This document shows positions 1,935 through 56,159 of a stretch of DNA of 64,000 nt, in pieces. Within the stretch, counting starts at the first letter, position 1, and each line of letters begins with the position of its first letter. The position numbers and the translations under genes are program-made. The stretch comes from Halobacteria archaeon (GTDB taxonomy: Archaea; Methanobacteriota_B; Thermococci; Methanofastidiosales; NM3), in the NCBI GenBank assembly GCA_036733165.1, contig DAINBB010000003.1, forward strand, positions 7,546 through 71,545. The letters are read 5' to 3'. The notes under the pieces are model-generated. The model did not search any database and was not told the origin of the DNA. It worked only from the letters and a program-made list of their open reading frames with translations.

Positions 1935-2686
1935 AAATGGCAGAAGAAAAGTTTGAACCTAAGATAGTGGCTTTCACATGCAACTGGTGTTCATATGCAG
2001 GTGCAGACCTGGCGGGTACATCGCGTATCCAATATGCGCCGAACATGCGCATCATCCGTGTCATGTGCTCTGGCAGGGTCGAACCTACCTTTATCCTGGA
2101 AGCCCTAAAAGAGGGTGCCGACGGCGTATGCGTTCTCGGCTGCCACTTCGGGGACTGCCACTACATAAGCGGGAACTATGAGGCCAACAGGAGAATGGAG
2201 CTTCTGAAGAAGCTCTTCCAGGACCTAGGCATCGATGAGAGAAGGATAATGATCGAATGGGTCTCTGCCTCTGAAGGGGAGAGATTCTCAGAGGTCGTCA
2301 ACAACTTCACGGAGCAGATAAGGGAACTTGGACCATTGCCCCCAGATTACAATGACAAGCTCGAGCTGATAAGGGGTGCCCTTGAGGGAGAGAGGCTCAG
2401 GATCGTCCTGGGTTCCACCAAGAGGGCGTTCGAAGGCGGCAGTGTAGAGGAGGAAAGGTACAATACGGCCCTCCACGACATCGCGAAGGACGAAATCGAC
2501 AGGGTCAAGATGTTCAAGGTCCTTGACAGGGAGGCTCGTCCGCTCACGGTTCCAGAGTTCTCTGAAATGACCGGAATTCCCAAGATGACGGTATGGAGAC
2601 ACGTACTCTCACTCACAAGGAAGAACCTCCTTGAGGCAATTGGTGAGGAGCATCAATACATGCTGTACCAAAGGAGGGGTGTGTAA
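1931..2686 (+). CDS. mvhD: MvhD-like (methyl-viologen-reducing hydrogenase delta subunit) domain protein with an approximately 110-aa C-terminal extension resembling a winged helix-turn-helix. The likely true start is ATG 1937 (RBS GGAGGTG 1924-1930).
   Basis: [19 protein letters not shown]...[36 protein letters not shown] is the canonical MvhD Cys pattern. The C-terminal [31 protein letters not shown] looks like an HTH recognition helix plus wing. Confidence 0.8.
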
Positions 2687-3861
2687 TGGTCATCAAGGAC
2701 GAGGAGATGGACTTCGAGTTCTCAAAGAAACTTGAGAAGGAGCTTGAGAACAGCTTTGCGAAGTGTTTCCAGTGCGGTACCTGCACAGCCAGGTGCCCCG
2801 GGGGCGTCATCTCCGATTACAGGACAAGAAAGTTCATGAGAATGGCCCAATTGGGTCTAAAGGACAAGATACTGGGCTCAGAAGACCTATGGAACTGCAC
2901 GACATGTTCCACCTGCAAGATCCTTTGCCCTTGGGAAGTAGACCCCCTATCCACGATCTTGAAGCTGAGAAGGGAAGCGGTCAAGGCCGGCAAGGAGAAC
3001 AAGAAGCATGATCCCCTAGTGAAGAGCCTTATCAACTATGACAACCCCTGGTTGCAACCAAGGGCGGCAAGGAAGAAATGGTACAAGGGTCTCGATGTCG
3101 TTGACCTCTCAAAGGAACCCGGCAAGGCGGATGTGCTCTATTACGTTGGATGCACGGCCACCTTCGACAAGAGGCTGTGGGGCATGTCAAGATCTGTGGT
3201 CAAGGTCCTCAACAAGGCAGGCATCACCGTAGGTGTGCTTGGCAAGGATGAGAAGTGCTGCGGAGGTACTGTCCGCGGTGTGGGTCATCCAGAGATCTTT
3301 GAAGAGCTGGCGAAACAGAATGTAGACGATCTCAACAACGCCGGCGTGGACACTATAATATTCTCATGTCCCGGATGTCTCAACACGATAAAGAACGCAT
3401 ACAAGGCCGAGAAGATAGGGGAAATAAAACCCAGGCTCATTCATGTCGTTGAATATGTGGACGAGCTTCTCAAGGAAGGCAAGCTGAAACTTGACAAGGA
3501 TGTCAAGAGGATAGTCACATACCATGACCCATGCCACCTTGGAAAGCACTGTGAGGTTTTCGATGCCCCGAGGGATATCCTCAAGGCCATCCCTGGACTT
3601 GACTTCAGGGAGATGAAGTTTGTAAGAAAGGATTCCTGGTGTTGCGGTGCCGGCGGAGGCGTGAAGACTGCATTCCCCGAGCGCGCGACAGAACTGGCGG
3701 TCAATCGTCTGGATCAGGCGGAGGAGACGGAAGCTGACACGATATGCAGCGCATGCTCGTTCTGCTATCAGAATCTTTTGGACGGTCTGGTGGCCAAGAA
3801 GGATTCCAAGATGGAGATGAAAGATATTATGGAACTTGTAGCGGAGGCGATTGAGGAATGA
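2686..3861 (+). CDS. hdrD: HdrD-like iron-sulfur/CCG-domain oxidoreductase (HdrC-like 2x[4Fe-4S] ferredoxin fused to an HdrB-like tandem CCG domain)
   Basis: CFQCGTCTARCP and CTTCSTCKILCP ferredoxin motifs. Two CCG domains (…GCTATFD…KCCGGTV… and …HDPCHLGKHC…WCCGAGGGV). TAATG overlap with mvhD, and RBS AAGGAGGGG upstream. Confidence 0.8.
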   Translation: MVIKDEEMDFEFSKKLEKELENSFAKCFQCGTCTARCPGGVISDYRTRKFMRMAQLGLKDKILGSEDLWNCTTCSTCKILCPWEVDPLSTILKLRREAVKAGKENKKHDPLVKSLINYDNPWLQPRAARKKWYKGLDVVDLSKEPGKADVLYYVGCTATFDKRLWGMSRSVVKVLNKAGITVGVLGKDEKCCGGTVRGVGHPEIFEELAKQNVDDLNNAGVDTIIFSCPGCLNTIKNAYKAEKIGEIKPRLIHVVEYVDELLKEGKLKLDKDVKRIVTYHDPCHLGKHCEVFDAPRDILKAIPGLDFREMKFVRKDSWCCGAGGGVKTAFPERATELAVNRLDQAEETEADTICSACSFCYQNLLDGLVAKKDSKMEMKDIMELVAEAIEE

Positions 3862-6140
3862 TTGGCGTATTCATATGTTTCTGCGGACAGAACATTGGTG
3901 GTTACATCAATGTCCCAGAGCTCACAGACTACTTCAATAACTGGAGAGATGACGTTGTTGCCTTCAACACAACATTCCTTTGCTCCGAGATCGGTCAGGA
4001 TTTGATCAAGGACAAGATAGAGGAATTGAACCTTGAGGCAGTGGTAATTGCTTCATGTTCTCCTAAGCACCATGGTGGGATCTTCCAGGCCTGCATTGGA
4101 CAGAAGATGAACCAGTACAGGTGGGAGTTTGCCAACATCAGGGAGCAGTGTGCTTGGGTGACACCCAACAAGAAGAATGCCACCGAGAAGGCCAAGGCCA
4201 TCATAGCCGGCGCCGTCGAGAAGGCCAGATTGTTGCAGGACATCGGTTCAACAAGGGTGCCTGTGACCAAGGACGTCCTTGTCATAGGCGGAGGTATCGC
4301 TGGTATGCACGGTTCCTTGGAACTCACTGACAAGGGATTCCATGTGCACATGGTGGAAAAACAGGAGACCATCGGCGGACACATGGTACAGTTCGACAGG
4401 GTATTTCCGACCGATGACTGTGCAATGTGTACGAGCTCGCCTATTCTTGCCGACGTAGCAATGGACCCACTGATAGACATATACTCCCTTTCCGAGGTCA
4501 TAGAGGTCCGAGGAAGGCCTGGAGAGTATATTGTGAAGATCAGAAGAAATCCAAGATATGTCGATGAGTCTAAGTGTACGGCCTGCGGTGACTGTACCAC
4601 GCACTGCCCAGTCGAGGCCTGGAGCGAATGGCGCTATGGAATGGCGGTCAGGTCTGCGATAGACAAGCCGCTTGCACAGGCTGTGCCGCTCAAGAACAGG
4701 ATATACAATGACACATGTATCAGGTGCGGGACCTGTGAGAACGTCTGTAAGGCAGATGCGGTTCTATATAATCAGGAACCCGAGGAGTTCGAGATAACCG
4801 TCGGTGCGATAATGATATCGACAGGCTACGACATTCTTGACCTTTCAAACACAGAATATCATCAGGAGCATCCCAATGTCATATCCCATCTGCAACTTGA
4901 GGCGCTGAAGGTGCCATCTGGTCCAACGGCCGGAGAGATTCTGAGGCCATCGGACGGTAAGATGCCGAAGCACCTCGTGTTCGTACTATGTGCGGGGTCC
5001 AGGGACAGGAGACACAACGTATACTGTTCCAAGGTGTGCTGCATGTACACCACCAAGAACGCAAGGCTGATCAAGGCGGAGAATCCCAACATGAAGATCA
5101 CCATTTGCTATATCGACGTCCGTGCTGCAGGAAGGGGATATGAGGAATACTTTGACAAGGCCCGTGAGATGGGCATAAACTATGTCAGAGGCAATGTGTC
5201 CGAGATAGTTCCCAACGGGGAGGACCTCATAGTGAGGCTCGAGGACACCTTCACGAGCGAGCCATTGGAGCTTGACGCTGACCTTGTTGTCCTGTCAAGC
5301 GGAATGGTGCCTTCGCAAGGTACCAGGGACATGTCCGAAGTGATACATGTGGTATCTGGCGCAGACAAGTTCCTTGCGCCGGTGCACGTGAAGATCGCGC
5401 CTGTCGACACTGCCAACACCGGTGTCTACATCGCGGGTACCGTTGAGGCACCCAAACCTATCCAGGAGTCAATCACGGACGCGGGTCTCGTGGCATCCAG
5501 GATAGCCACGTTCCTTAAGGATCCCGAGATAGAGATCGATCTGAAGACCTCGAAGATAAACGCCGACGTATGTATAAAGTGCGGCACATGCGCGGACAAC
5601 TGTGTCTACGATGCCATTGACACCACCGGTGAGGACTTCAAGGTGCTTGATGTGTCATGCCAGGCATGCGGTAAGTGCTCGGTGATATGTCCGACAGGGG
5701 CCATTGACCTTCAGTTGTACACCGAGGACCAGCTCATCAAACAGGTCGATGGTATACTGGAGCAGGACCCGGACTCGATAATAGGATACTGCTGTTACCA
5801 ATGCGGTTACAACGCCGCTGACCTTGCAGGTACTGCAAAGGCTTTCATAAACCCCAAGGTCAAGGTCGTATTGGTGCCCTGTTCAGGACGTGTGACCATA
5901 CAGCACATGCTCTATCCGTTCTTCAAGGGCGCGAAGGGCGTCTTCCTCGCAGCATGCCTCGAGGGCCAGTGCCATTACATAGACGGCAATCTGCAGGCCA
6001 AGGAGAAGGTCAAGCTGGCGAAGAAATCACTGGACCTGATGGGTGTTGGTGGACGTAAGCTGAATCTGTTCAACATGTCCTCGGCAGAAGGTCCTAAGTT
6101 TGTCGCTGCTGCTAAAAGGATGGTGGAAATATGTCAGTAG
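3858..6140 (+). CDS. hdrA: HdrA-MvhD fusion protein (HdrA2-type): N-terminal Cys4 domain, FAD domain with an inserted ferredoxin domain, C-terminal ferredoxin, then a fused MvhD domain
   Basis: MIGVFICFCGQNIGGY N-terminal domain; VLVIGGGIAGMHGSLEL FAD fold; four CxxCxxCxxxC(P) motifs; C-terminal YCCYQCGYNAADLAG…VPCSGRV…ACLEGQCHY is MvhD-like. ATGA overlap with the upstream gene. Confidence 0.85.
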   Translation: MIGVFICFCGQNIGGYINVPELTDYFNNWRDDVVAFNTTFLCSEIGQDLIKDKIEELNLEAVVIASCSPKHHGGIFQACIGQKMNQYRWEFANIREQCAWVTPNKKNATEKAKAIIAGAVEKARLLQDIGSTRVPVTKDVLVIGGGIAGMHGSLELTDKGFHVHMVEKQETIGGHMVQFDRVFPTDDCAMCTSSPILADVAMDPLIDIYSLSEVIEVRGRPGEYIVKIRRNPRYVDESKCTACGDCTTHCPVEAWSEWRYGMAVRSAIDKPLAQAVPLKNRIYNDTCIRCGTCENVCKADAVLYNQEPEEFEITVGAIMISTGYDILDLSNTEYHQEHPNVISHLQLEALKVPSGPTAGEILRPSDGKMPKHLVFVLCAGSRDRRHNVYCSKVCCMYTTKNARLIKAENPNMKITICYIDVRAAGRGYEEYFDKAREMGINYVRGNVSEIVPNGEDLIVRLEDTFTSEPLELDADLVVLSSGMVPSQGTRDMSEVIHVVSGADKFLAPVHVKIAPVDTANTGVYIAGTVEAPKPIQESITDAGLVASRIATFLKDPEIEIDLKTSKINADVCIKCGTCADNCVYDAIDTTGEDFKVLDVSCQACGKCSVICPTGAIDLQLYTEDQLIKQVDGILEQDPDSIIGYCCYQCGYNAADLAGTAKAFINPKVKVVLVPCSGRVTIQHMLYPFFKGAKGVFLAACLEGQCHYIDGNLQAKEKVKLAKKSLDLMGVGGRKLNLFNMSSAEGPKFVAAAKRMVEICQ

Positions 6141-8083
6141 ATGAGAAGAAGGAAGAACCTATCCAGGTATCCGGCGGATGCGAGATAGGTGGCGTCTTGG
6201 AATGTGCCACCTGCAAGAGATGTTCGCTTGTCTGTCCGACAGAGCTTAACCTGGAAAAGGTCGTAAGGATCTCAAGATACCTCAGGGACCCGAAAGGATC
6301 CCACAGGAACATCTTCAAGATCACGTCGAAGCTCGCCGGAATGGCGGAGACACAGAGCTGGCTCAAGAACGGCGAGACAGGCACTGACATAGCATACTTC
6401 CCAGGTTGTTCAGCCCTCTTTGACATACTGTTGCAGAGGGACACCAACTACGCTGGTTCCGCCGAGGCGGCCGTGCTCGTATTGAACAAGCTAGGTTTCA
6501 AACCAGAAGTCATCTATGGCTGTTGCGGACATGACCTATATTACTCGGGTGCGCTCGATGAGTTCGAGACCGTCAAGAAAGAGATGATGAAGAAGGTCGA
6601 GGGCAAGAAGATAGTGGTCGGTTGTGCCGAATGCTACCATATGCTCAAGAACGTATATGGCATAGAGGATACGATACCTTTCGCAGAGTTCGTCCTTCAG
6701 CACAATCCGAAGTTCGAAAAGACCGACCTCAAGACCACCTACCACGACCCATGCAGGCTTGGCAGGTACAACAGCGTCTACGATGCTCCAAGGGAACTTC
6801 TGAAGAAGGCATCCGACTTCAGGGAGATGGAGAACATAAGGGAAGAGGCCATATGTTGTTCCGTTTCCGCCTGGCTCAACTGCAACAAGACGGCAAGGGA
6901 GGTCAGATTCAACAGGATCAAGGAAGCGAAGGCGACTGGCGCGGATTACCTTGTGACCGCATGCAACAAGTGTTCCATACATCTCGACTGTGTCCATTAC
7001 GAACTCAACAAGGAAGAGGTCGAGGAGCTCAGCGATATCAAGATAATGGGGCTTGAGGAGGTCGTCGGCTACGCCATGGGTGTCTATGACCCGTTCAAGG
7101 AGGAGAAGTCGTACGAGGTGCCGGAGATCACAGGCAAGTTCCTTGAACCGATCGAGATCGAGAAGGACCTTGAGAGATATATCGACGAGGAACTTGTCGA
7201 AGAGGCGTTCAAGTGCACGTCCTGCAAGAACTGCGCCATTGTATGCCCCGTGCATTACGATACCCCCGGAATGATGATGGAGGTATTCAGGCCGGAGCTT
7301 GTAAAGCGCGGCCACGGTCCTGAGAAACACGCGAAGATAGAGGGCGTCCTAAGGAAGACCGGAAATGCTTTCGGTGCGGAGGAAGGCGTAAAGACCAAAC
7401 TAAATCCAAAGGCAAAGTATGTATACTTCCCGGGATGCGTTGCTCAGTTCAGGCGCGATGACGTTTTCCAGGCAACGACCAAGATCTTGGACCTTCTCAA
7501 GATCGACTATGAGATACCAGAAGGGCTCGTATGTTGCGGTTCCGTCCTGAAGAGGACAGGTCACCCGATGGACTTCCTGATCGAGCAGAACATGAAGCTG
7601 CTCAAGGGCAAGCCCATAATCACATCCTGTTCAGGTTGTTATGCAACCTTGAAGAAGGACTATGAGGGCCTTGAGGTGTATCACATAACAGATATCATCA
7701 AGGAGAATCTGGACAAGCTTCCGCTGAAGGAGGTCAAGAAGAAGGTCATGTACCACGATCCTTGCCACCTTGGAAGGAAGTTCAGTTACTACGACATCCC
7801 AAGGGAGATAATCGAGGCCATTCCGGGCATTGAGCTCGTACCCTTCGACAAGGAGAAGGAGAACGCGCAATGTTGTGGTGCAGGTGGCGGGGTGAAGTCT
7901 GCGAAGCCAGACATCGCAAACAAACTTGCACAGAAGAAGATGGACGAGGCCAAGGAAAAGAAGGCCGACATGGTCGTATCATCATGTCCCTTCTGTGAGC
8001 TCAATCTTCAGGACAACAACAACGACATACCGGTGGTCGACATCCTGAATCTCCTTATGGAATCACTGGGGGTGGAAGCATGA
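6131..8083 (+). CDS. Internally duplicated HdrD-like protein: two consecutive [ferredoxin + CCG + CCG] units in one polypeptide
   Basis: Unit 1: CATCKRCSLVCP; YFPGC…CCGHD; HDPCRLG…ICCSVSAW. Unit 2: FKCTSCKNCAIVCP; YFPGC…VCCGS; HDPCHLGRKF…QCCGAGGGV. Confidence 0.75.
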   Translation: MSVDEKKEEPIQVSGGCEIGGVLECATCKRCSLVCPTELNLEKVVRISRYLRDPKGSHRNIFKITSKLAGMAETQSWLKNGETGTDIAYFPGCSALFDILLQRDTNYAGSAEAAVLVLNKLGFKPEVIYGCCGHDLYYSGALDEFETVKKEMMKKVEGKKIVVGCAECYHMLKNVYGIEDTIPFAEFVLQHNPKFEKTDLKTTYHDPCRLGRYNSVYDAPRELLKKASDFREMENIREEAICCSVSAWLNCNKTAREVRFNRIKEAKATGADYLVTACNKCSIHLDCVHYELNKEEVEELSDIKIMGLEEVVGYAMGVYDPFKEEKSYEVPEITGKFLEPIEIEKDLERYIDEELVEEAFKCTSCKNCAIVCPVHYDTPGMMMEVFRPELVKRGHGPEKHAKIEGVLRKTGNAFGAEEGVKTKLNPKAKYVYFPGCVAQFRRDDVFQATTKILDLLKIDYEIPEGLVCCGSVLKRTGHPMDFLIEQNMKLLKGKPIITSCSGCYATLKKDYEGLEVYHITDIIKENLDKLPLKEVKKKVMYHDPCHLGRKFSYYDIPREIIEAIPGIELVPFDKEKENAQCCGAGGGVKSAKPDIANKLAQKKMDEAKEKKADMVVSSCPFCELNLQDNNNDIPVVDILNLLMESLGVEA

Positions 8084-8706
8084 GCGAAGCCGAGACAAAG
8101 AAGGTGGATCAGATGGAAGAGGACCCGTACGAACTGGAGAACTTCCACAAGATCCTTGAGGACAGCAAGATCCTCAACTGCGTCCAATGCGGGAAATGCA
8201 CCGGAGGCTGCCCTGCAGGAAGGGACTCCAGGATAAGGATAAGGGAGCTTATCCATCTTGCCCACGAGGGTCATGACATCAAGGACTGCAAGGAGCTATG
8301 GCTTTGCACAACATGCTACAACTGCCAGGAAAGGTGTCCCAAGGGCGTTGACACGACAGAGGCCATCATTTCCCTGAGAAACAGGGCCATAAGAAAGGGC
8401 GACCACAACTTCCCGGAGATCCACGTCACCGCGATCACGTCCTTGCGTGATCAGGCCGATGGATTCCCGCTCAGCCCCGATGTTGAGTCTATCAGGTCTG
8501 TCATCGGACTTCCGAAACATCCGCACGACCTGGCCCATGACCCAGAGGGTCTCAAGAAGTTCCAGGAACTCATGGACGACCTTGACATCGTGGGACTAAT
8601 CGAGAAGCAATGTGGCGACAGCAAGCCATGGAAGTACGTGGACATCGATTACAAGCCACCAGTTGCCAGAGGCGCCAAGAAGAAGGAGGCTGAGTCAGAT
8701 GAGTGA
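8080..8706 (+). CDS. hdrC: HdrC-like subunit (2x[4Fe-4S] ferredoxin)
   Basis: CVQCGKCTGGCPAG and CTTCYNCQERCPKGVD motifs. ATGA overlap with the upstream gene. Confidence 0.8.
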   Translation: MSEAETKKVDQMEEDPYELENFHKILEDSKILNCVQCGKCTGGCPAGRDSRIRIRELIHLAHEGHDIKDCKELWLCTTCYNCQERCPKGVDTTEAIISLRNRAIRKGDHNFPEIHVTAITSLRDQADGFPLSPDVESIRSVIGLPKHPHDLAHDPEGLKKFQELMDDLDIVGLIEKQCGDSKPWKYVDIDYKPPVARGAKKKEAESDE

Positions 8707-9604
8707 AGAGGAAACAAGGAAACAGGAGACTTACTCTCTTTTCCCTGGATGCATCGCCAAGAACATGTATCCCTCCATAGAGAAGTCTACATATACCATC
8801 TTTGAGAAGATAGGCGTAAAGCTTCTCAATCACAGATACTCCTGCTGTCCAGCACCAGGTGTCTTCAGGGGATATGACAGGAAGACCCACATGACACTAG
8901 GTGTCAGGAACATAGTCATGGCGGCACAGGACAACGTGGATGTCATGACAATATGCAACGGATGCTACGGTTCCCTTTGGGAAGCGAACGAGATGTTCAG
9001 GAAGAGCAAGGAGAACCAGGAATTTGTGAACGGGAAACTTGCCAAGATAGGGCTCTCATACGATGGGAAGACCGAGGTGCTCCACTTCGTGGATGTTCTT
9101 CACAAGCACTTGGAGGATGTGGAGAATGCAAAGGAGATCGATCTTGGTCTTAAGGTGGCGGTCCATTACGGATGCCATTATCTGAGGCCGTCTGACAAGC
9201 ATCCCGACATCAATCCCGAAAGCCCACACGTCATCGAGGATGTCGTTGAGGCATTGGGCTGCGAGAGCGTGGACTTCAAGAACAAGCTTTCCTGCTGCGG
9301 TGCCGGCGGAGGTGTCTGGAGCGGAGCAGAGGAACTTGGGCTCAGGGTCCTTGATGCGAAGCTCAAGAACGTTCAAGAGTCAGGCGCAGACTGCATAGTC
9401 AACATATGCCCGTTCTGCCACATGCACCTTGACCAGAGCCAGGGCAAGCTTGAGGAGAGGTACAAGATACCTATCCTGCACCTTAGCGAGTTGACCGGTC
9501 TGGCATTTGGCATAAGACCAAAACACCTTGCGATGCACACGCACCTGATATCCACGCGTGACATCGAGAAGAAGATCAAGAGCGCAAAGAAGGAAAAGGC
9601 ATAG
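8699..9604 (+). CDS. hdrB: HdrB-like subunit (two CCG domains)
   Basis: ATG at 8699 overlaps the hdrC stop (8704-8706). FPGCIAKN…SCCPAPG and HYGCHYLRP…SCCGAGGGV motifs. The track ORF began further upstream with out-of-context residues. Confidence 0.8.
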   Translation: MSEEETRKQETYSLFPGCIAKNMYPSIEKSTYTIFEKIGVKLLNHRYSCCPAPGVFRGYDRKTHMTLGVRNIVMAAQDNVDVMTICNGCYGSLWEANEMFRKSKENQEFVNGKLAKIGLSYDGKTEVLHFVDVLHKHLEDVENAKEIDLGLKVAVHYGCHYLRPSDKHPDINPESPHVIEDVVEALGCESVDFKNKLSCCGAGGGVWSGAEELGLRVLDAKLKNVQESGADCIVNICPFCHMHLDQSQGKLEERYKIPILHLSELTGLAFGIRPKHLAMHTHLISTRDIEKKIKSAKKEKA

Positions 9605-30826: not shown

Positions 30827-30917
30827 GTTCGATAAACGATTGTAAATTTATAGCTTATTAGGGGGAGAAACCTTTTTAAAAACTTTGCATATCCCTTATA
30901 TAACGGCTGTGAAAATC

Positions 30918-31142
30918 ATGAAAGAGAAGGTAAAAGAAGTATTGGACAAGATTCGCCCAATGCTACAGGCGGATGGCGGGGATGTCGAACTTGTCGATGT
31001 CGATGAGGAGACAGGGAAGGTCATGGTGAAACTTACAGGTGCATGCGGCGGGTGTCCCATGTCCCAGATGACCTTGAAGTTCGGTATAGAGGCCGAACTG
31101 AAGAAGGAGATCCCAGAGGTCACGGAAGTAGTCAACCTTTGA
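30918..31142 (+). CDS. NifU-like (Nfu) Fe-S cluster scaffold domain protein
   Basis: LTGACGGCPMSQMTL CxxC motif of the NifU C-terminal domain; start set at ATG 30918. Confidence 0.7.
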   Translation: MKEKVKEVLDKIRPMLQADGGDVELVDVDEETGKVMVKLTGACGGCPMSQMTLKFGIEAELKKEIPEVTEVVNL

Positions 31143-32310: not shown

Positions 32311-32946
32311 TCAATCGACCTTCTTGTAGCAGAACCACCAGTCCTTGCACTCGAGGCTGTCGTCCTTGAGCCTTTTCTCCGCTTCCTCGACAGTGGTCGC
32401 GGGCGGAACTATGGCCCTGCCGCCTATGAACTCGTTGTTCGGCCAGTTGGCGGGCGCGGCAACCTTGTTCTTGTCCGTGAACTGGAGCGCCTTGACTATC
32501 CTCACTATCTCATCGAGGTTTCTTCCGATCTCCTGTGGATAGTATAGTATTACCCTTATTATGCTGTTCGGGTCTACAACGAACACCGCCCTGACGGTGT
32601 TGGAACCCTTGTTTGGATGAAGCATTCCAAGCATCTTTGAAAGTTTCCCATGGTCGGCGATAACTGGGAAAGGTATCTTTACACCAAGATTCTCTTCTAT
32701 CCATTGGACCCACATGATGTGTGAGAATACTTGGTCTATCGAGAGCCCTATTAGTTCACAGTTGAGCTCCTTGAGTTCAGGCGCCTTCTTTGCGAACCCT
32801 GCAAACTCGGTAGTGCATACTGGAGTGAAGTCACCTGGGTGACTAAAAAGGATGAACCATTTTCCCGAATATTCATTGGGAAGTATCTTCCTTCCCATGG
32901 TAGTTACCACCTTGACCTCCGGGAACTTATCCCCGATGAGGGGCAT
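32311..32946 (-). CDS. Peroxiredoxin (1-Cys/Prx6-type thiol peroxidase)
   Basis: [19 protein letters not shown] peroxidatic Cys motif; start set at [10 protein letters not shown]. Confidence 0.85.
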
Positions 32947-33085
32947 GCTTCTTTCTTCTTCACACATTTCAATACCTCTTTTGATTTGTGATAATCGTTA
33001 TGTTGGGGGATTATAATAATTTTTTTCAGAAAAGCATTAAAAACTTGTAGAAAATATGAATACAAAGAAAAAAAGGAGGTATCTC

Positions 33086-33202
33086 ATGACGAAGGTAGGA
33101 GAAAAGTACATCTGCGACATATGCGGAAACGAGGTCGAGGTCGTCAAGGCCGGAGGCGGGACGCTTGTATGTTGCGGAGTAAAGATGAGACTTACAGATT
33201 AA
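33086..33202 (+). CDS. dsr: Desulforedoxin (37 aa), absent from the ORF track
   Basis: MTKVGEKYICDICGNEVEVVKAGGGTLVCCGVKMRLTD with the CxxC…GGGTLVCCG desulforedoxin signature. RBS GGAGGT 6 nt upstream. Confidence 0.7.
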   Translation: MTKVGEKYICDICGNEVEVVKAGGGTLVCCGVKMRLTD

Positions 33203-33208
33203 TCTGAG

Positions 33209-33225
33209 TCCATGCCCTGCATGGA
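33209..33225 (+). other. Short hairpin TCCATG-ccctg-CATGGA followed by a C/T-rich tract between dsr and fprA
   Basis: 6-bp inverted repeat read from sequence. Confidence 0.25.
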
Positions 33226-33251
33226 CCCTTCCCTTTTCAAGGGGGATCCCA

Positions 33252-34442
33252 ATGAACAAAATAGAGTTGAAGAACGGTATATACTGGGTCGGGGCTATAG
33301 ATTGGAATCTCCGCGATTTCCACGGATACAAAACGCCGAACGGGTCTACATATAATGCATATCTCGTAGTTGGCGAGAAGATTGCATTGATAGACACGGT
33401 GAAGAGACCTTTTCTGAACGACCTTGTTGAAAACATCAGGAACATAGTGGAACCTGAGAAGATCGATTATCTTATAGTAAACCATGTCGAGATGGACCAT
33501 TCAGGTTCATTCCCGGAGATCGTGAAACTGCTCAAGAACGCCCGCATTGTCGCCACCAAGGAGGGCAAGGAGGAACTTTTGAAGCACCACGGCAAGGATT
33601 ATGACATAACGGTCGTGGAGGACGGTGACACGATATCCCTGGGCAACAAGACCCTCAGATTCATAAAGACTCCGATGCTGCATTGGCCCGACTCGATGAT
33701 GACATATGTCCAGGAGGACAAGGTGATATTTACTTCGGACGCCTTTGGCCAACATTACGCCTCCACAGAAAGGTTCGACGACGAGCTTGACGAGAAGACG
33801 CTCTATGACGCGGCTGGGGAATACTATTCCAACATACTTTGGCTCTACAGCCCGCTTGTATCACGCCTGATCGAGAAGGTGATGGACATGGGCATCAAGC
33901 TGGAGATGGTGGCACCCGACCATGGCATAATATGGAGAAACGACCCGCATAAACCCATAAACTGGTATTGCGAGTGGGCAAATGGAAAGTCTGTGAACAA
34001 GGTGTTGCTGGTATATGAAACGATGTGGGGCTCCACGGAAAAGATGGCCAGGGCGATAGCCAAGGGAATAACAGACCAGGGAATGAACGTCAAGCTGATG
34101 AAGCTTAAGGAGACCGAATACAGCTACGTGATCAAGGAACTGCTCGGGTGCAGAGGCATACTTGTGGGCACACCTACCCTCAACAACAACATGTTCCCCT
34201 CCATGGGCGGTTTTCTGACATATCTTAAAGGGCTCAGGCCAAAGGGAAGGATAGGAGCGACCTTTGGTTCCTATGGCTGGGGCGGCGGTGCGTGCAAGGC
34301 CGCGGAGGAGATGCTGGACGAGGCGGGTGTCAGGATAGCGTTCCCGCCACTGGAGCTTAAATGGGTCCCTACGGCCGAAGAGCTCGAGGACTGTTACACC
34401 TTTGGAAAGGAGTTTGCATCTAAAGCTATGGAGAAGATATAG
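33252..34442 (+). CDS. fprA: Flavodiiron protein FprA (metallo-beta-lactamase-like diiron domain + flavodoxin domain)
   Basis: HVEMDHSGS (HxExDH) motif plus a C-terminal flavodoxin-like domain; 396 aa. Confidence 0.85.
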   Translation: MNKIELKNGIYWVGAIDWNLRDFHGYKTPNGSTYNAYLVVGEKIALIDTVKRPFLNDLVENIRNIVEPEKIDYLIVNHVEMDHSGSFPEIVKLLKNARIVATKEGKEELLKHHGKDYDITVVEDGDTISLGNKTLRFIKTPMLHWPDSMMTYVQEDKVIFTSDAFGQHYASTERFDDELDEKTLYDAAGEYYSNILWLYSPLVSRLIEKVMDMGIKLEMVAPDHGIIWRNDPHKPINWYCEWANGKSVNKVLLVYETMWGSTEKMARAIAKGITDQGMNVKLMKLKETEYSYVIKELLGCRGILVGTPTLNNNMFPSMGGFLTYLKGLRPKGRIGATFGSYGWGGGACKAAEEMLDEAGVRIAFPPLELKWVPTAEELEDCYTFGKEFASKAMEKI

Positions 34443-35342
34443 TTGGAGAAACAGGATCTTAAGAATGAGGCATGGAAGAAGGTCGGCACAAAGTTTGCAC
34501 ATATAACAAGTGTCCATCCATGCTACAATGAGGATGCGCATCACAAAAACGCCAGGATACACCTCCCAGTGGCCCCGAAATGCAACATCCAATGCAGATT
34601 CTGCAGCAGGGGTCTGGACAAGTGTGCCAATCGGCCTGGCGCCTATTCCCACCTATTGAGCCCCGAGGGGGCTGTGGAACGGGTCAGGGAGGCGAAGAAG
34701 AAGTATAGGACGCTCCGGGTGGTCGGAATAGCGGGCCCGGGCGAACCATTGTTCAACCTCGAGACGTTCGAGACATTGTCAATGGTTGACAAGGCGTTCC
34801 CGAAACTATACAAGTGCATAGCCACCAACGGCCTCCTATTGCCAAAGAAAGTGGACATCCTCAAGAGCAACAACGTCGGCAGCGTCACCGTGACGGTGAA
34901 CGGCCTGGACCCGGATGTCGTTTCACAGATAGTGTCATGGGTGGTGTACGAGGGCAAGCTGTACAAGGACGAAAGGGGCGCCGAGAAGCTGATAGAGAAT
35001 CAGCTTGAAGGGATCGAAAAGGCCGTTAATGCGGGAATGGTGGTGAAGGTCAACACGGTCCTCATACCTTCCATCAACATGGACGAGGTAGAGATGATAG
35101 CAAAGACCGCATCCGAGCTTGGCGCATGGATAATGAACATCATCCCACTGATACCGCTCAACGATTTCTCAGACATGGAACCGCCGGGTTGCGATGACCT
35201 CAAGAGGGCAAGGCAGATGGCCGAGAAGCATATAAATCAGTTCAGGCTCTGCAAACAGTGCAGGGCGGATTCCTGCGGCGTTCCGGGAAAAGAGGACCAT
35301 TCAATACCAAGGACCTGCGCATCAGAATATTTCCATGGGTGA
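34443..35342 (+). CDS. NifB-like radical SAM protein (minimal NifB, no NifX domain), apparent TTG start abutting the fprA stop
   Basis: HPCYNEDAHHKNARIHLPVAPKCNIQCRFCSRGLDKCANRPG is nearly the NifB signature (HPCY…AHH…ARMH…VAP.[21 protein letters not shown]). There is no in-frame ATG before this motif. Confidence 0.7.
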   Translation: MEKQDLKNEAWKKVGTKFAHITSVHPCYNEDAHHKNARIHLPVAPKCNIQCRFCSRGLDKCANRPGAYSHLLSPEGAVERVREAKKKYRTLRVVGIAGPGEPLFNLETFETLSMVDKAFPKLYKCIATNGLLLPKKVDILKSNNVGSVTVTVNGLDPDVVSQIVSWVVYEGKLYKDERGAEKLIENQLEGIEKAVNAGMVVKVNTVLIPSINMDEVEMIAKTASELGAWIMNIIPLIPLNDFSDMEPPGCDDLKRARQMAEKHINQFRLCKQCRADSCGVPGKEDHSIPRTCASEYFHG

Positions 35343-35348
35343 TCCGGC

Positions 35349-37685
35349 ATGGAAGGGAGGTTCCATCTCGAGGGAATACACTGTGCAGGGTGTGTGAAGA
35401 AGATAGAGGATGCACTAAGGTCCCTTGATGGCGTGAAAGATGTGGCCATCAACCTTGCATCCAATTCTGGAACAGTCGATTACGATGAATCCGTTGTAGA
35501 CGGCAGGACGATATCGGCGAAGATATCCTCTCTGGGTTACAAGGTGAAGCTCGAGAGCGTCGTGGTGGACATAGTGGGCATGCACTGCGCCAACTGCGCG
35601 CTCGGTCTTGAGAAGGCCCTGGGCGGCACCGACGGCGTATCCAGTGCAAATGTGAACTTCAACACTGGCAGGGCGTTTGTCACCTACGACCCCTTGGCGT
35701 TCGATGCGGGGCTTATCAACGATATAGTTGAGAAGAGGGGGTACAAGGTCGCCTCAAGGGAGAAGACCGACGAGAAGGAAAGCAATCCGTATCTGAGGAC
35801 GTTCATCTTTACCTTGCTGCTCGCAGTTCCTGTCATATTCATCACCCACTTCACCGAGTTTGACAACAGGCCCATCGTGCTTTTCCTTTTGACAACGCCG
35901 ATACAGTTTATCTCGGGCTTTACATTCTACAGAAGCGCCCTCTACTCTCTCAAGGGTGGTAGCGCCAACATGGATGTCCTCGTGATGCTTGGGACATCTG
36001 CGGCATACTTCTATTCGGTGGGGACGACGTTCTTCTTCGAAGGCCCACTGTTCTTTGAGACCACCGCAATGCTCCTTTCGTTCATACTGCTGGGAAAACT
36101 GCTTGAGACATACGCCAAGGGTAGAACCTCCCAGGCCCTAAAGAAGCTGATGGCACTGCAGGTCAAGTTCGCACTGGTCGAACGCGACGGAAGACAGATA
36201 GAGGTGCCCATAGACTTCGTGAAGGAGGGAGACATAACGATAGTGAGGCCAGGGGAACGCGTGCCCGTGGACGGCATCGTCACTGAAGGGTATTCGACGG
36301 TGGACGAGTCCATGATAACGGGCGAGTCGATACCCAGGGAGAAGGTCGGGGGCGATGATGTCATAGGGGGCACCATAAACGGCAATGGCCTTCTGAAGGT
36401 AAGGGCCACCAAGGTGGGGGCGGATGCCATGCTATCCCAGATAATATCGTTTGTCGAGAAGACCCAGGGCACCAAGCCGCCCATACAAAGGTTCGCCGAC
36501 AGGGTGTCATCCTATTTCGTCCCGGCGATCATCATCATCGGCCTGACCACCTTCGCATTGTGGTATCTCGTCCTTGACGAGACATTCGTCTTCTCGCTGA
36601 CCAGGATGATAGCCGTGCTTGTCGTGGCGTGCCCATGCGCGCTGGGCCTTGCGACACCCACGGCCATTGCGGTCGGCACGGGTGTGGGGGCGAACAACGG
36701 CATCCTGATAAAGAGCGGCGAGGCGCTTGAGAAGGTCCAGGACGTCGACACGGTAGTGTTCGACAAGACGGGGACCCTGACCAGGGGAACGCCGGAGGTC
36801 ACTGACTACACATCCATGGATGTGCTCAGGTACGCTGCCAGCATTGAAAAGGGGTCTACGCATCCCCTTGCCGAGGCCATCGCCTCAAAGGCGGAGCAAG
36901 AGGGCATAGAACTGGCCGGCGTTGAAAAGCTGAACACGATCCCTGGAAGGGGCATCGAGGCCGAGATGGGCGGCAAGAGGTACCTTTTAGGCAATTCATC
37001 ATTATTGAAGGACAATCATATCCCGTTCAGGGAGGAGGGGGCCATACTTCTTGAAAACAGGGGAAACACCGTTGTGCACCTGGCAAGGGAGGGCGAGTAT
37101 CTGGGACATGTGGCTTTGGCAGACACGGTAAAGGACAATGCGCCCCGGGCGGTTGCAGACCTTCGCAGGAGGGGCATATCCGTATGGATGATCACGGGGG
37201 ACAATGAGAACACGGCCAGGGCCATATCACATCAGCTTGGCATAGACAACTTCATGTCCAACATACTTCCAAAGGACAAGGCGCTCAAGATAAAGGAGCT
37301 TCAGGACGGCGGAAAGAAGGTCGCGATGGTCGGCGACGGCATCAACGACGCGCCCGCCCTGATACAGGCGGACGCGGGGATAGCCATCGGCTCCGGTTCC
37401 GAGATAGCCATAGAATCCGGAGAGATAATACTGGTCGGTGACGACATAGGCGATGTCAACGTCTCCTTGTCCCTGTCCAAGAGCATATATTCGAAGATAA
37501 TGCAGAACATGTTCTGGGCGCTGTTCTACAATTCCCTGATGATCCCCATCGCCGCAGGGCTACTGTCGGGTCATGGCATAAACATGAGGCCCGAGCTGGC
37601 GGCGCTCGCCATGTCAATGTCCTCCGTGTCTGTGGTTTCCAACTCCCTTTTGTTAAGAAGATTTAAAATGAAGGATTCAGATTAG
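35349..37685 (+). CDS. copA: Cu+-translocating P1B-type ATPase CopA with two N-terminal HMA domains
   Basis: GIHCAGC and GMHCANC metal-binding sites; CPC, DKTGTLT, HP and [10 protein letters not shown] motifs. Confidence 0.9.
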
Positions 37686-37705: not shown

Positions 37706-38200
37706 ATGAGCAACCCCCTTGATCTGGCCATAAAGACCGAAAAGGACGGTATAGCGTTCTATAAGAAAGAAGCCGAAAAGAGTGGCGATGAAATGGGAAG
37801 GAAGATGTTCCTTTCATTCGTTGAGGATGAGAAGCGGCACCTTGAGATACTTCAAAAGATGTCATGCAAGGAACATGTCTGCATATCCGACATTGAGAAC
37901 TACAGTCCGAAAAAGAACCTCAAGACCATATTCTCTGAGATGAAGGAAGAGGAAAGGAAGGGTTCCATCGACACCTCGACGGACATTGGGGCGCTTGAGT
38001 TGGCCATGGAGATGGAAAGGATGGGCTATGACCAATACATGGAGGCAGCGAAGATGGAAAAGGACGAGGAACACAAGAGGATATACATGAAGCTTGCCCA
38101 GGAGGAGAAGGAGCACTTTGACCTTCTGCAGGAGGCAAGGAGCTATCTTGAAGACACAGGGAACTGGTACATGTGGTACGAGCACAAGTTCCCGACATAG
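37706..38200 (+). CDS. Ferritin-like diiron protein (rubrerythrin family, no rubredoxin domain)
   Basis: Two ExxH motifs (EDEKRH, EEKEH) in a four-helix pattern; RBS GGAGGT upstream. Confidence 0.6.
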   Translation: MSNPLDLAIKTEKDGIAFYKKEAEKSGDEMGRKMFLSFVEDEKRHLEILQKMSCKEHVCISDIENYSPKKNLKTIFSEMKEEERKGSIDTSTDIGALELAMEMERMGYDQYMEAAKMEKDEEHKRIYMKLAQEEKEHFDLLQEARSYLEDTGNWYMWYEHKFPT

Positions 38201-38319: not shown

Positions 38320-38808
38320 GTGCTATGGGTGACATATACTGTTAAGGACATACTCAACATTGCCGTAAGGTCCGAAGAGGAGGCGGAACTGTACTATTCC
38401 CGCCTGGGCGACAAGACCGAAAATGTATTTTTTAAAGAAAAGTTACGGCAGCTATCGGCAGAGGAGAAGGGACACAAGGCCGTGATACTCTCATTGATGG
38501 GTGAACAAGGCGTGAATGTTGCCATAAGTGAGGAGAAGGCCGTATCCCTGGAGCTGCCTTCCCTGACGTTCGACGACTCAAAGCCCATGTCCTTGCTCAT
38601 AGAGGCGGCCATGGATGCAGAGAATGCGGCAAGGGTCTTTTACAAGACATTGTCGGAGAGTGTCGAGGAAGGACGCGAACGTGCGATGTTGGAGTACCTT
38701 GCATCGTTTGAAGCGTCCCATTATCACATGCTGGAGGCCGAGATGGCGGCCATCAAGCATTTCGAGGACTACGATGAGTTCAACGAGATGATGCATGTGG
38801 GGCCCTAA
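38320..38808 (+). CDS. Ferritin-like diiron protein, paralog of the upstream gene
   Basis: EEKGHKAV and EASHYHMLE ExxH motifs; GTG start (alternative GTG at 38329). Confidence 0.55.
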   Translation: MLWVTYTVKDILNIAVRSEEEAELYYSRLGDKTENVFFKEKLRQLSAEEKGHKAVILSLMGEQGVNVAISEEKAVSLELPSLTFDDSKPMSLLIEAAMDAENAARVFYKTLSESVEEGRERAMLEYLASFEASHYHMLEAEMAAIKHFEDYDEFNEMMHVGP

Positions 38809-55910: not shown

Positions 55911-56159
55911 TTTTGCTTTTTTCTTCAATTGAATTTTAGTATTTACAATGTAGTAATTGCATTATTTCCTTATTTTTTTTATTTTACAGTAAAACCACTG
56001 CAAAAAGTATTTAAAGGAAAAGTTACATTAAATGCCTATATAGCTATACGGAGTGTTGGAGCGTGAACATGTTCGAAAAAGTAATCCAATTAGTTAATGG
56101 TATATTTACACACGATTCTGATACAGATTTTGTCAATGATAAGTATGGTTGGAGGTTTA

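What the first reader, a model, noticed from the sequence alone, without database searches (positions are those of the whole stretch)
34443..35342. Minimal NifB-like radical SAM protein outside any nif context, TTG-initiated and coupled to FprA
The HPCY…AHH…VAP.CNIQC motif block is almost diagnostic of NifB (the FeMo-co NifB-co synthase). There is no nifHDKEN in 64 kb. The only possible start before the conserved N-terminal motif is a TTG, directly after the fprA stop codon. A NifB-type carbide/Fe-S cluster-fusing enzyme embedded in an O2-defence operon hints at a cluster-repair or cluster-biosynthesis role for a non-nitrogenase target.
Basis: partly seen in the sequence, partly recalled or inferred. 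Interest (0 to 1): 0.6.

Follow-up and report, generated by a model that had tools for sequence, protein, structure and literature searches.

The report
Methanogen housekeeping NifB in oxygen-defence operon
This is a genuine single-domain NifB from a Methanofastidiosa methanogen, and a NifB without nearby nitrogenase genes is already known and largely explained in methanogens (it is thought to make the [8Fe-9S-C] clusters of the methyl-coenzyme M reductase activation complex); only its tight operon with oxygen-defence genes and one lost cluster ligand are mildly new.

Summary
ORF 34443..35342 (+) encodes 299 aa. TTG is its only possible start, and it directly follows the in-frame TAG stop of a flavodiiron gene. 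The protein is a stand-alone NifB: TIGR01290 scores 272 bits against 66 for MoaA, and PDB NifB structures match at E 1e-86. The radical-SAM, K1 and K2 Cys/His ligands are all present.

No nifHDKEN-type gene lies in the 64 kb. The host is a Candidatus Methanofastidiosa archaeon.

This is not new biology. NifB is universal in methanogen genomes, a third of which lack nitrogenase, and it is essential in Methanosarcina (bioRxiv 10.1101/2023.10.20.563283). The MCR activation complex carries L-cluster-like [8Fe-9S-C] clusters on McrC and Mmp7, with NifB as the proposed source (PMC12176620).

Two points are modestly new:
- The desulforedoxin-FDP-nifB-copA-rubrerythrin operon is conserved across this lineage. 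An FDP was the most widely distributed nifB neighbour among the 80 archaeal and bacterial species loci examined.
- The normally invariant Glu of the ExRP motif, a K1-cluster ligand, is Ala in this sub-clade only, while the gene is under strong purifying selection.

Verdict: a new member of a known kind, of low to moderate interest.

The parts
34443..35342 (+). nifB: stand-alone radical SAM NifB, 299 aa, TTG start
   Evidence: ORF and unique start. (TIGR01290 272 bits, MoaA 66 bits). (PDB NifB E 1e-86). (ligands invariant). (dN/dS 0.056 against the 82%-identical orthologue).
34430..34433 (+). GGAG Shine-Dalgarno-like element inside the 3' end of the FDP gene, 9 nt before the nifB TTG
   Evidence: Read directly from the sequence. 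That it acts as a ribosome-binding site is inference.
34521..34523 (+). Codon for Cys27 of the HPC motif (equivalent to C18 of 7BI7, a K1/bridging ligand)
   Evidence: Alignment, ligand list in PMC8179604, invariant.
34581..34604 (+). Radical SAM cluster motif C47-x3-C51-x2-C54
34623..34637 (+). Plug-loop Cys61 followed by A62-N-R-P, in place of the conserved ExRP motif (K1 glutamate ligand lost)
   Evidence: Ala occurs only in P0001-P0004 among the 120 nearest homologues. Motif defined in PMC5715403. Glu is a K1 ligand in 6Y1X (PMC10114646).
35250..35261 (+). C270-x2-C273 (equivalent to C260/C263 of 7BI7, K2-cluster ligands)
33252..34442 (+). Class-A flavodiiron protein (FprA / rubredoxin:oxygen oxidoreductase type), 396 aa. 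Its TAG stop is in frame with nifB and abuts it.
   Evidence: ODP + Flavodoxin_1 domains. (PDB 1YCF E 5e-125, 1E5D, F420H2 oxidase 6FRM)..
33086..33202 (+). Desulforedoxin-like 38-aa gene with a GGAGG ribosome-binding site; first gene of the operon
   Evidence: Desulfoferrod_N, E 1.2e-14. (sequence). The same gene is called in the homologous loci.
35349..37685 (+). CopA-type heavy-metal P-type ATPase, 6 nt after the nifB stop
   Evidence: 2x HMA, E1-E2_ATPase, Hydrolase domains. Conserved position.
37706..38200 (+). Rubrerythrin-like protein 1
   Evidence: conserved.
38320..38808 (+). Rubrerythrin-like protein 2, last gene of the cluster (a convergent pfkB gene follows)
32311..32967 (-). 1-Cys peroxiredoxin, divergent from the operon
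   Evidence: conserved position.

Best explanation
The gene encodes the housekeeping NifB of an MCR-containing methanogen of the Methanofastidiosa. Using its radical-SAM cluster and two substrate [4Fe-4S] clusters (K1, K2), it fuses them and inserts a SAM-derived carbide to give an [8Fe-9S-C] L-cluster (NifB-co). In this organism the product is most likely delivered not to nitrogenase but to McrC and Mmp7 of the ATP-dependent methyl-coenzyme M reductase activation complex. There such clusters relay low-potential electrons to F430. The gene is translated from a TTG that abuts the stop codon of a flavodiiron O2/NO reductase gene. It is co-transcribed in a desulforedoxin-FDP-nifB-copA-rubrerythrin operon. 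Shown here: the protein's identity and fold family, its ligand set, purifying selection, the operon structure and its conservation, and the absence of nif genes nearby. Inferred from the literature: the product and its acceptor. Inferred from gene order only: that an extremely O2-labile cluster synthase is made together with O2, peroxide and copper detoxification, so that MCR reactivation capacity can be protected or rebuilt after oxidative stress.
For: Identity as NifB:
- TIGR01290 scores 272 bits over profile positions 9-279, against 66 bits for the next family, MoaA.
- PDB NifB 7JMA/7JMB/7BI7 match at E about 1e-86 and 6Y1X at 8e-76.
- The equivalents of C18, H24, H31, C38/42/45, C52, C115 and C260/263 of the structure papers are all present and invariant.
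- The sub-cutoff NCBIfam score is normal for NifX-less archaeal NifB: the crystallised Methanothrix NifB scores 308 bits and an ANME-2 NifB 280 bits.
- dN/dS is 0.056.

Host and context:
- The identical protein is annotated from a Candidatus Methanofastidiosa archaeon.
- Hdr/Mvh-type genes are in the window.
- The 80 best GTDB-species hits come mostly from lineages known to carry MCR or ACR.
- No nif structural genes are in the window.
- The operon is conserved, with gaps of 0-7 nt or 4-nt overlaps between fprA and nifB, in orthologues of 63-82% identity.
- In one other archaeon nifB is followed at 1 nt by methanogenesis marker 14.

Literature:
- NifB is universal in 245 methanogen proteomes, about 33% of which lack nitrogenase.
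- It is essential in M. acetivorans and not regulated by nitrogen.
- NifB from the nitrogenase-less Methanothrix complements it.
- Three L-cluster-like [8Fe-9S-C] clusters sit on McrC/Mmp7, and NifB is proposed as their source.
- Methanofastidiosa sequences appear in that paper's McrC/Mmp7/CfbD trees.
Against: - No acceptor gene (mcrC, mmp7) was seen on the about 71 kb inspected, and their presence in this genome rests on literature for the class.
- The rest of the genome could not be searched, so nitrogenase or nitrogenase-like genes elsewhere are not excluded.
- Transfer of NifB-co to the MCR activation complex has not been demonstrated biochemically, even in model methanogens.
- The conserved Glu of ExRP, a K1 ligand in 6Y1X, is Ala here, so the enzyme departs from every experimentally confirmed NifB at one ligand position.
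- The link to O2 defence is from gene order only, and most MCR-bearing lineages lack it (61 of the 80 loci).
Confidence: 0.75

Rival explanations
1. It is an ordinary nitrogenase maturase. The genome carries nifHDK(EN) elsewhere, and this is its only nifB, merely located away from the nif cluster.
For: About 67% of methanogen proteomes with NifB do have nitrogenase. In several diazotrophic archaea nifB is unlinked to nifHDK. Only about 71 kb of this genome was seen.
Against: No nif gene is in the window. In all orthologous loci nifB is embedded in an O2/metal-stress operon. From memory, and not checkable here because the paper is not held, the original WSA2/Methanofastidiosa genome paper reported no nitrogen fixation genes. 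Even if nitrogenase were present, the essential non-nitrogenase role would still apply.
Confidence: 0.1
2. It supplies clusters to a nitrogenase-like (group IV, Mar-type) reductase acting on methylated sulfur compounds. This would fit the methylated-thiol lifestyle of Methanofastidiosa.
For: Methylthio-alkane reductases use nitrogenase-type clusters, as cited in PMC12176620. Methanofastidiosum lives on methylated thiols.
Against: No NifD/K-like or NifH-like gene was found in the window or in any of the orthologous loci examined. This is pure analogy.
Confidence: 0.03
3. The E-to-A change in the ExRP loop marks a neofunctionalised NifB paralogue that makes or repairs a different Fe-S species for an oxidative-stress target. 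The FDP, the rubrerythrins or other damaged clusters are candidates.
For: The Glu is lost only in this sub-clade (4 of 120 homologues). The operon with FDP, CopA and rubrerythrins is strictly conserved. In one relative a cysteine desulfurase and TusA lie inside the same cluster.
Against: Sister orthologues in the same operon keep the Glu (P0005-P0008; L011, L012), so the operon context predates the substitution. All other ligands and motifs are intact. No second nifB was found in the loci examined, and every methanogen needs one. FDPs and rubrerythrins use di-iron sites, not complex Fe-S clusters.
Confidence: 0.07
4. The adjacency to the FDP gene is historical accident with no functional meaning; only the NifB function matters.
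For: 61 of 80 species loci have no FDP within about 3.5-6 kb of nifB. Methanocella, Methanosarcinales, Archaeoglobi and Methanomethylicia show unrelated neighbours.
Against: The FDP is the single most widespread neighbour family (19 of 80 loci). It occurs in three different arrangements involving two FDP paralogues, in Methanofastidiosales and in Methanoperedens. Stop-start abutment or 4-nt overlaps are kept across 63-82% identity.
Confidence: 0.3

Closest known systems
Methanothrix thermoacetophila NifB (PDB 7JMA/7JMB/7BI7), from a methanogen without nitrogenase
   Same: Single radical-SAM domain of about 290 aa, the same RS/K1/K2 Cys and His ligands, and a host reported to lack nitrogenase. 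It was shown to make the [8Fe-9S-C] cluster by complementing M. acetivorans.
   Different: Only 46% identity. It keeps the ExRP glutamate, whereas the window protein has Ala. The window gene lies in an FDP-copA operon.
Methanosarcina acetivorans NifB (essential housekeeping NifB)
   Same: Same orthogroup, which is universal in methanogens, and the same ligand set. The window-lineage NifB falls as sister to the Methanosarcinales/Methanocella/Methanoperedens clade in a neighbour-joining tree.
   Different: M. acetivorans also has three nitrogenases served by the same NifB. Identity to Methanosarcinales-clade NifBs (ANME-2, Methanoperedens and relatives) is about 55-58%. No operon with O2-defence genes is reported for it.
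Bacterial NifB-NifX fusion proteins (Azotobacter vinelandii, Klebsiella oxytoca)
   Same: Homologous radical-SAM core with HPC, Cx3Cx2C, AGPG, TxTxN and Cx2CR motifs.
   Different: The window protein has no NifX-like domain, so only profile positions 9-279 of 441 match. It is not in a nif cluster and not NifA-regulated, and the ExRP Glu is lost.
Methanoperedens rubredoxin-nifB unit with a divergent FDP gene; genus Methanofastidiosum nifB ... FDP-rubrerythrin
   Same: nifB lies next to a flavodiiron protein and a small Fe(Cys)4 redox protein or a rubrerythrin.
   Different: Different gene orders and strands. The Methanofastidiosum FDP is a distant paralogue (32-35% identity). No copA is present, and these NifBs keep the Glu.
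Rhodobacter capsulatus nif cluster A (fprA and peroxiredoxin prxS under NifA control)
   Same: A flavodiiron protein and a peroxiredoxin are encoded and co-regulated with nitrogenase cofactor-biosynthesis genes. This is a precedent for pairing O2 scavengers with this O2-labile chemistry.
   Different: It is a bacterial diazotroph. There fprA is in a separate operon from nifB and serves nitrogen fixation, not methanogenesis.

Membership tests
NifB (radical SAM [8Fe-9S-C] / NifB-co synthase) | Canonical Cx3Cx2C radical-SAM cluster motif | tested here: met
   C47-NIQ-C51-RF-C54. Pfam Radical_SAM E 1.5e-21. Invariant in the alignment.
NifB (radical SAM [8Fe-9S-C] / NifB-co synthase) | N-terminal HPC motif cysteine plus the K1 ligands His and Cys (C18, H31, C115 in 7BI7 numbering) | tested here: met
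   C27, H40 and C125 align to C18, H31 and C115 (ligand list). Invariant in 15 sequences.
NifB (radical SAM [8Fe-9S-C] / NifB-co synthase) | C-terminal Cx2CRxDAxG motif carrying the K2 cysteines (C260/C263) | tested here: met
   C270-KQ-C273-RAD is present. The tail reads DSCG instead of DAxG; Ser occurs at this position in 12 of 120 homologues.
NifB (radical SAM [8Fe-9S-C] / NifB-co synthase) | ExRP motif (its Glu is the fourth K1 ligand in 6Y1X); strictly conserved in experimentally confirmed NifBs | tested here: not met
   The sequence is C61-A62-N-R-P. Ala is found only in P0001-P0004 among the 120 nearest homologues, and Glu in every other archaeal locus where the motif could be located. 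Filing the protein under NifB therefore rests on overall orthology and the remaining ligands; it is a variant at this position.
NifB (radical SAM [8Fe-9S-C] / NifB-co synthase) | AGPG and TxTxN motifs | tested here: met
   A97-G-P-G100 and T149-V-T-V-N153.
NifB (radical SAM [8Fe-9S-C] / NifB-co synthase) | Score above the curated cutoff of the NCBIfam equivalog TIGR01290 | tested here: inconclusive
   272.2 bits against a cutoff of 343.65. The crystallised, functional Methanothrix NifB also fails (308 bits), as do ANME-2 and Methanocella NifBs (280-291 bits), because the model includes the bacterial NifX domain.
NifB (radical SAM [8Fe-9S-C] / NifB-co synthase) | Catalytic formation of NifB-co (carbide insertion and cluster fusion) | not testable with these tools
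   Needs complementation or an in vitro assay.
Methanogen housekeeping NifB (nitrogenase-independent, proposed supplier of the MCR activation complex) | The host encodes MCR and the cluster-binding acceptors McrC and Mmp7 | not testable with these tools
   These genes are not in the about 71 kb seen. The literature places Methanofastidiosa sequences in the McrC/Mmp7/CfbD trees. Hdr/Mvh genes in the window are consistent with a methanogen.
Methanogen housekeeping NifB (nitrogenase-independent, proposed supplier of the MCR activation complex) | Not embedded in or co-regulated with a nif operon | tested here: met
   No PF00148 or PF00142 proteins are in the window or in the orthologous loci. The gene is co-oriented and coupled with FDP and copA.
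Methanogen housekeeping NifB (nitrogenase-independent, proposed supplier of the MCR activation complex) | Genome lacks nitrogenase altogether | not testable with these tools
This is not strictly a defining feature, because diazotrophic methanogens use the same NifB.
MoaA / other radical SAM maturases (considered and rejected) | Score near the family cutoff | tested here: not met
   MoaA models score 55-67 bits against cutoffs of 231-325. All other radical-SAM families score 41 bits or less.

The most novel reading that the evidence does not exclude
In Methanofastidiosales, and independently in Methanoperedens, nifB belongs to an oxidative-stress regulon. After O2 exposure destroys the L-clusters of the MCR activation complex and oxidises F430, the cell co-expresses an O2-reducing flavodiiron protein with its desulforedoxin or rubredoxin partner, rubrerythrins, a copper exporter and NifB. 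O2 removal and resynthesis of [8Fe-9S-C] clusters are thereby coupled, making NifB a recovery or repair factor for methanogenesis. In this sub-clade the enzyme also works without the 'invariant' ExRP glutamate, which would show that this K1 ligand is dispensable.
Probability: 0.25. Interest if true: 0.5.

Novelty: new member of a known kind. Interest (0 to 1): 0.3.

Why it matters
The gene adds a Methanofastidiosa example to the now-established picture that NifB is a core methanogenesis gene rather than a nitrogen-fixation marker. Public annotation still labels this exact protein only as 'radical SAM protein', because archaeal NifBs fall below the NCBIfam cutoff.

Two details are useful handles for experiment:
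- nifB is recurrently linked to flavodiiron, rubredoxin and rubrerythrin genes. This suggests a testable connection between O2 stress and renewal of the MCR activation machinery.
- This sub-clade carries a natural Glu-to-Ala variant at a crystallographically observed K1-cluster ligand while the gene stays under strong purifying selection. That bears on which ligands NifB really needs, which matters for engineering NifB into other hosts.

Tried and rejected
- Searched for nif structural genes with Pfam scans of about 55 window ORFs and a six-frame NifH P-loop motif search. None was found; there is only an 85-aa Nfu-type 'NifU' domain protein.
- Tried to decide whether the whole genome lacks nitrogenase. 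This was not possible. The GTDB scan returns only loci around NifB. The source MAG is not a species representative. The WSA2 genome paper is not held. Other papers mentioning Methanofastidiosa say nothing about nif.
- Walked the contig. The left side gave 7.5 kb up to the contig end with no nif, mcr or mmp gene. A DUF2124 protein there did not match any NCBIfam methanogenesis-marker model. The look-up for the right side failed because the 2144-aa product is not on record.
- Considered MoaA or another radical-SAM identity and rejected it on scores.
- Considered an FDP-NifB read-through fusion, because the TAG stop is in frame with nifB. Rejected as a conserved feature: orthologues have a 7-nt out-of-frame spacer or a 4-nt overlap, and ATG starts.
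- Tested whether the A2-like double ABC ATPase next to nifB in 7 other loci is MCR component A2. The result was inconclusive: TIGR03269 scores 297 bits against a cutoff of 517.
- Folded the two small hairpins between the desulforedoxin and FDP genes. They are not significant (z = -1.6) and are not conserved, since the spacer in L001 is only 18 nt.
- Searched the literature for an nifB-fprA link in archaea and found none. The only hit is the bacterial R. capsulatus precedent.
Full report
**1. What is in the sequence**

ORF 34443..35342 (+) encodes 299 aa. The upstream gene, 33252..34442, ends with TAG at 34440-34442. The next codon, in the same reading frame, is TTG at 34443. It is the only ATG/GTG/TTG in frame before the conserved HPC motif. 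A GGAG lies 9 nt upstream, inside the end of the preceding gene. NCBI's annotation of the 100%-identical protein (P0001, 299 aa) uses the same start. Orthologues start with ATG at the equivalent position, either after a 7-nt spacer or with a 4-nt ATGA overlap. The TTG is therefore a local substitution of the start codon, and the tight coupling is conserved.

**2. Identity of the protein**

Family scores:
- Pfam sees only the radical SAM domain.
- NCBIfam TIGR01290 (NifB) scores 272 bits (E 7e-81) over profile positions 9-279 of 441. The next family, MoaA, scores 66 bits.
- The score is below the curated cutoff of 343.65, but this is a property of all NifX-less archaeal NifBs. As controls, the crystallised Methanothrix NifB scores 308 bits, an ANME-2 NifB 280 bits and Methanocella 291 bits.
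- Against the PDB, the only hits are NifB structures: 7JMA/7JMB/7BI7 at E about 1e-86 and 6Y1X at 8e-76.

The ligands named in the structural papers (7BI7 numbering) map as follows:

| Ligand in 7BI7 | Role | Window residue |
|---|---|---|
| C18 | K1 / bridging | C27 |
| H24 | semi-conserved His near K2 | H33 |
| H31 | K1 | H40 |
| C38/C42/C45 | radical-SAM cluster | C47/C51/C54 |
| C52 | plug-loop Cys | C61 |
| C115 | K1 | C125 |
| C260/C263 | K2 | C270/C273 |

All of these are invariant in the 15-sequence alignment. The single-domain 'minimal' form is the normal archaeal architecture and is sufficient for activity in vivo (PMC5715403).

**3. One real deviation**

Arragain et al. define confirmed NifBs by the motifs HPC, Cx3Cx2C, ExRP, AGPG, TxTxN and Cx2CRxDAxG. 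The window protein has A62-N-R-P instead of ExRP, and DSCG instead of DAxG.

[quoted passage not shown] Ala at this position occurs only in the four closest cluster representatives (P0001-P0004, 75-100% identity) among the 120 nearest homologues. It is absent from every other archaeal locus in which the motif could be located. Sister orthologues in the same operon (P0005-P0008; L011, L012) keep the Glu.

The gene is under strong purifying selection: dN/dS is 0.056 against the 82%-identical orthologue, with dS about 2, which is near saturation. This is therefore a functional variant, not decay.

**4. Organism and surroundings**

The identical protein comes from a Candidatus Methanofastidiosa archaeon MAG. 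The same contig occurs as a 98.7-kb JGI metagenome contig.

The window carries Hdr/Mvh-type genes at 60..9604, which fits a methyl-reducing methanogen. About 55 ORFs covering the window were scanned. None has an Oxidored_nitro or NifH domain, and there is no NifH-type P-loop in any frame. The only 'Nif' name is an 85-aa Nfu-type domain protein at 30885..31142. The 7.5 kb left of the window, up to the contig end, also has no nif, mcr or mmp gene. About 27 kb to the right, and the rest of the genome, could not be inspected.

nifB sits in a co-directional, tightly packed cluster:

| Gene | Coordinates | Evidence |
|---|---|---|
| Desulforedoxin, 38 aa, GGAGG ribosome-binding site | 33086..33202 | |
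| Class-A flavodiiron protein | 33252..34442 | |
| nifB | 34443..35342 | |
| CopA-type P-type ATPase | 35349..37685 | |
| Rubrerythrin-like protein 1 | 37706..38200 | |
| Rubrerythrin-like protein 2 | 38320..38808 | |

The flavodiiron protein is closest to Moorella FDP 1YCF (E 5e-125), D. gigas rubredoxin:oxygen oxidoreductase, and methanogen F420H2 oxidases. A 1-Cys peroxiredoxin is divergent upstream at 32311..32967. The order FDP-nifB-copA is kept in every contig of this lineage that was examined, with NifB identity from 63% to 82%; the peroxiredoxin, desulforedoxin and rubrerythrin genes accompany it in most.

**5. Comparison across archaea**

A scan of one genome per GTDB species returned 80 loci. 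Most come from lineages known to carry MCR or ACR: Methanosarcinales/ANME-2, Methanoperedens, Methanocella, Archaeoglobi, ANME-1/Alkanophaga, Methanomethylicia, Bathyarchaeia and Methanofastidiosum. A few are bacterial.

Clustering all ORFs within 3.5 kb of nifB showed that the flavodiiron protein is the most widely distributed neighbour family, present in 19 of 80 loci. It occurs in three arrangements:
- Upstream and translationally coupled, in the window lineage.
- Downstream, as a distant FDP paralogue (32-35% identity) followed by a rubrerythrin, in the genus Methanofastidiosum. There nifB is also next to a convergent rhodanese gene.
- Divergent from a rubredoxin-nifB unit, in about a dozen Methanoperedens species.

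The other recurrent neighbours are lineage-specific synteny. In one archaeon nifB is followed at 1 nt by methanogenesis marker 14. In seven loci an A2-like double ABC ATPase is nearby, but it scores below the A2 cutoff.

In an unbootstrapped neighbour-joining tree, the window-lineage NifB is sister to the Methanocella/Methanosarcinales/Methanoperedens clade. It is separate from the genus Methanofastidiosum NifBs. This agrees with the horizontal transfers noted for NifB in PMC12176620.

**6. What is already known**

- A NifB homologue was listed among the methanogen-specific genes in 2011 (PMC3087415).
- Saini et al. (bioRxiv 10.1101/2023.10.20.563283) found NifB in all 245 methanogen proteomes, although about a third lack nitrogenase.
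- The same study showed that NifB is not nitrogen-regulated and cannot be deleted in M. acetivorans.
- It also showed that NifB from the nitrogenase-less Methanothrix both rescues viability and supports diazotrophy.
- Ramirez-Amador et al. (Nature 2025, PMC12176620) found three L-cluster-like [8Fe-9S-C] clusters bound by McrC and Mmp7 in the ATP-driven MCR activation complex. They proposed NifB as the source of these clusters and included Methanofastidiosa sequences in their McrC/Mmp7/CfbD trees.

**7. Most likely mechanism**

The most likely reading has three parts.
- Chemistry: NifB fuses its K1 and K2 [4Fe-4S] clusters and inserts a SAM-derived carbide and a ninth sulfide, giving [8Fe-9S-C]. 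This chemistry is established for homologues and inferred here from orthology and ligand conservation.
- Acceptor: the cluster is handed to McrC/Mmp7, where it relays electrons that reduce F430 to Ni(I). This comes from the literature and was not tested here.
- Regulation: co-transcription with an O2/NO-reducing FDP, its small Fe(Cys)4 partner, rubrerythrins and a Cu exporter is shown by gene order. That this protects an O2-labile enzyme, or times L-cluster resynthesis to recovery from oxidative inactivation of MCR, is inference only.

A bacterial precedent exists: in R. capsulatus, fprA and a peroxiredoxin lie in the NifA-activated nif cluster.

**8. Rivals**

- A plain nitrogenase maturase with nif genes elsewhere: cannot be excluded without the genome, and it would not remove the housekeeping role.
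- A supplier for a Mar-type nitrogenase-like reductase: no such gene was seen.
- A neofunctionalised repair enzyme: the Glu loss is younger than the operon, and all other NifB features are intact.
- Accidental adjacency to the FDP: argued against by recurrence in three arrangements, but 61 of 80 loci lack the FDP.

**9. Verdict**

The gene is a new member of a known kind, the nitrogenase-independent NifB of MCR-bearing archaea. It has two modestly new features: the conserved O2-defence operon context and the ExRP Glu-to-Ala variant. Interest is 0.3.

Noticed in passing
window 34626-34628 (codon A62 of nifB): The 'strictly conserved' Glu of the NifB ExRP motif, a K1-cluster ligand in PDB 6Y1X, is Ala. 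This is seen only in the four closest cluster representatives among 120 homologues. The gene is nevertheless under strong purifying selection (dN/dS 0.056).
   Followed up: partly
window 34440-34445: The FDP stop codon TAG and the nifB start TTG are adjacent and in the same reading frame, so read-through of a single stop would give an FDP-NifB fusion. Orthologues are out of frame, so this is probably incidental.
   Followed up: yes
window 33086-33202 and 33208-33246: There is a 38-aa desulforedoxin-like gene with a strong GGAGG ribosome-binding site at the head of the operon. Two small hairpins lie between it and the FDP gene (MFE -19.2 kcal/mol, z -1.6, not significant). They are absent from the orthologous locus, which has an 18-nt spacer.
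   Followed up: partly
L043:6001-9708; also L058, L061, L067, L071 (genus Methanofastidiosum): nifB is followed by a convergent rhodanese-domain gene, then a distant FDP paralogue and a rubrerythrin. A rhodanese (rhdN) is co-transcribed with nifB in A. vinelandii and has been proposed as donor of the ninth sulfur (PMC8179604).
   Followed up: no
L009:6161-8891 and about a dozen Methanoperedens loci (L022, L026, L033, L034, L036, L038, L040, L048, L051, L062, L076): A rubredoxin gene lies directly upstream of nifB, with a divergent FDP that is 50-52% identical to the window FDP. This is closer than the FDP next to nifB in the genus Methanofastidiosum, which hints at shared ancestry or transfer of the FDP/nifB neighbourhood.
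   Followed up: partly
L006:7014-10025: In a 64%-identical relative, a YHS/TRASH mini-protein, TusA and a cysteine desulfurase are inserted between the two rubrerythrin genes of the same cluster. This adds sulfur-mobilisation genes to the nifB operon neighbourhood.
   Followed up: no
L010:7266-10316 (same contig as L025): nifB sits between a DUF169 gene and methanogenesis marker 14 (TIGR03285, 643 bits) with 0-1 nt spacers, downstream of the mtr operon. This is a direct genomic link between nifB and methanogenesis-marker genes.
   Followed up: partly
L027:8293-9927 and 6 other loci (L020, L044, L049, L053, L054, L084): A double ABC ATPase with no membrane domain lies near nifB in Archaeoglobi, Bathyarchaeota and Methanoperedens. 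Its best NCBIfam hit is MCR component A2, but below the cutoff (297 against 517 bits).
   Followed up: partly
window 60-9604 and L092:6392-17124: A large heterodisulfide-reductase/Mvh-delta-type cluster is present. It includes a 1020-aa HdrA-like fusion that starts left of the window, two FlpD (MvhD) domains and four CCG-domain proteins.
   Followed up: no
L092:1816-3504 (contig left of the window): A rubredoxin gene, an acetate-uptake transporter and a 179-aa DUF2124 protein lie here. The DUF2124 protein matches no NCBIfam model, and no paper in the library mentions DUF2124.
   Followed up: partly
window 56097-62531: This ORF encodes a 2144-aa protein made of many CarboxypepD_reg / SdrD-B / prealbumin-like repeats, presumably a surface protein. 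Its product as read from the first start codon is not on record in the gene collection, so the start may be mis-set.
   Followed up: no
window 34443-35342 versus public annotation: The identical NCBI protein is named only 'radical SAM protein'. Archaeal single-domain NifBs, including the crystallised one, fall below the TIGR01290 cutoff and so are systematically under-annotated.
   Followed up: yes
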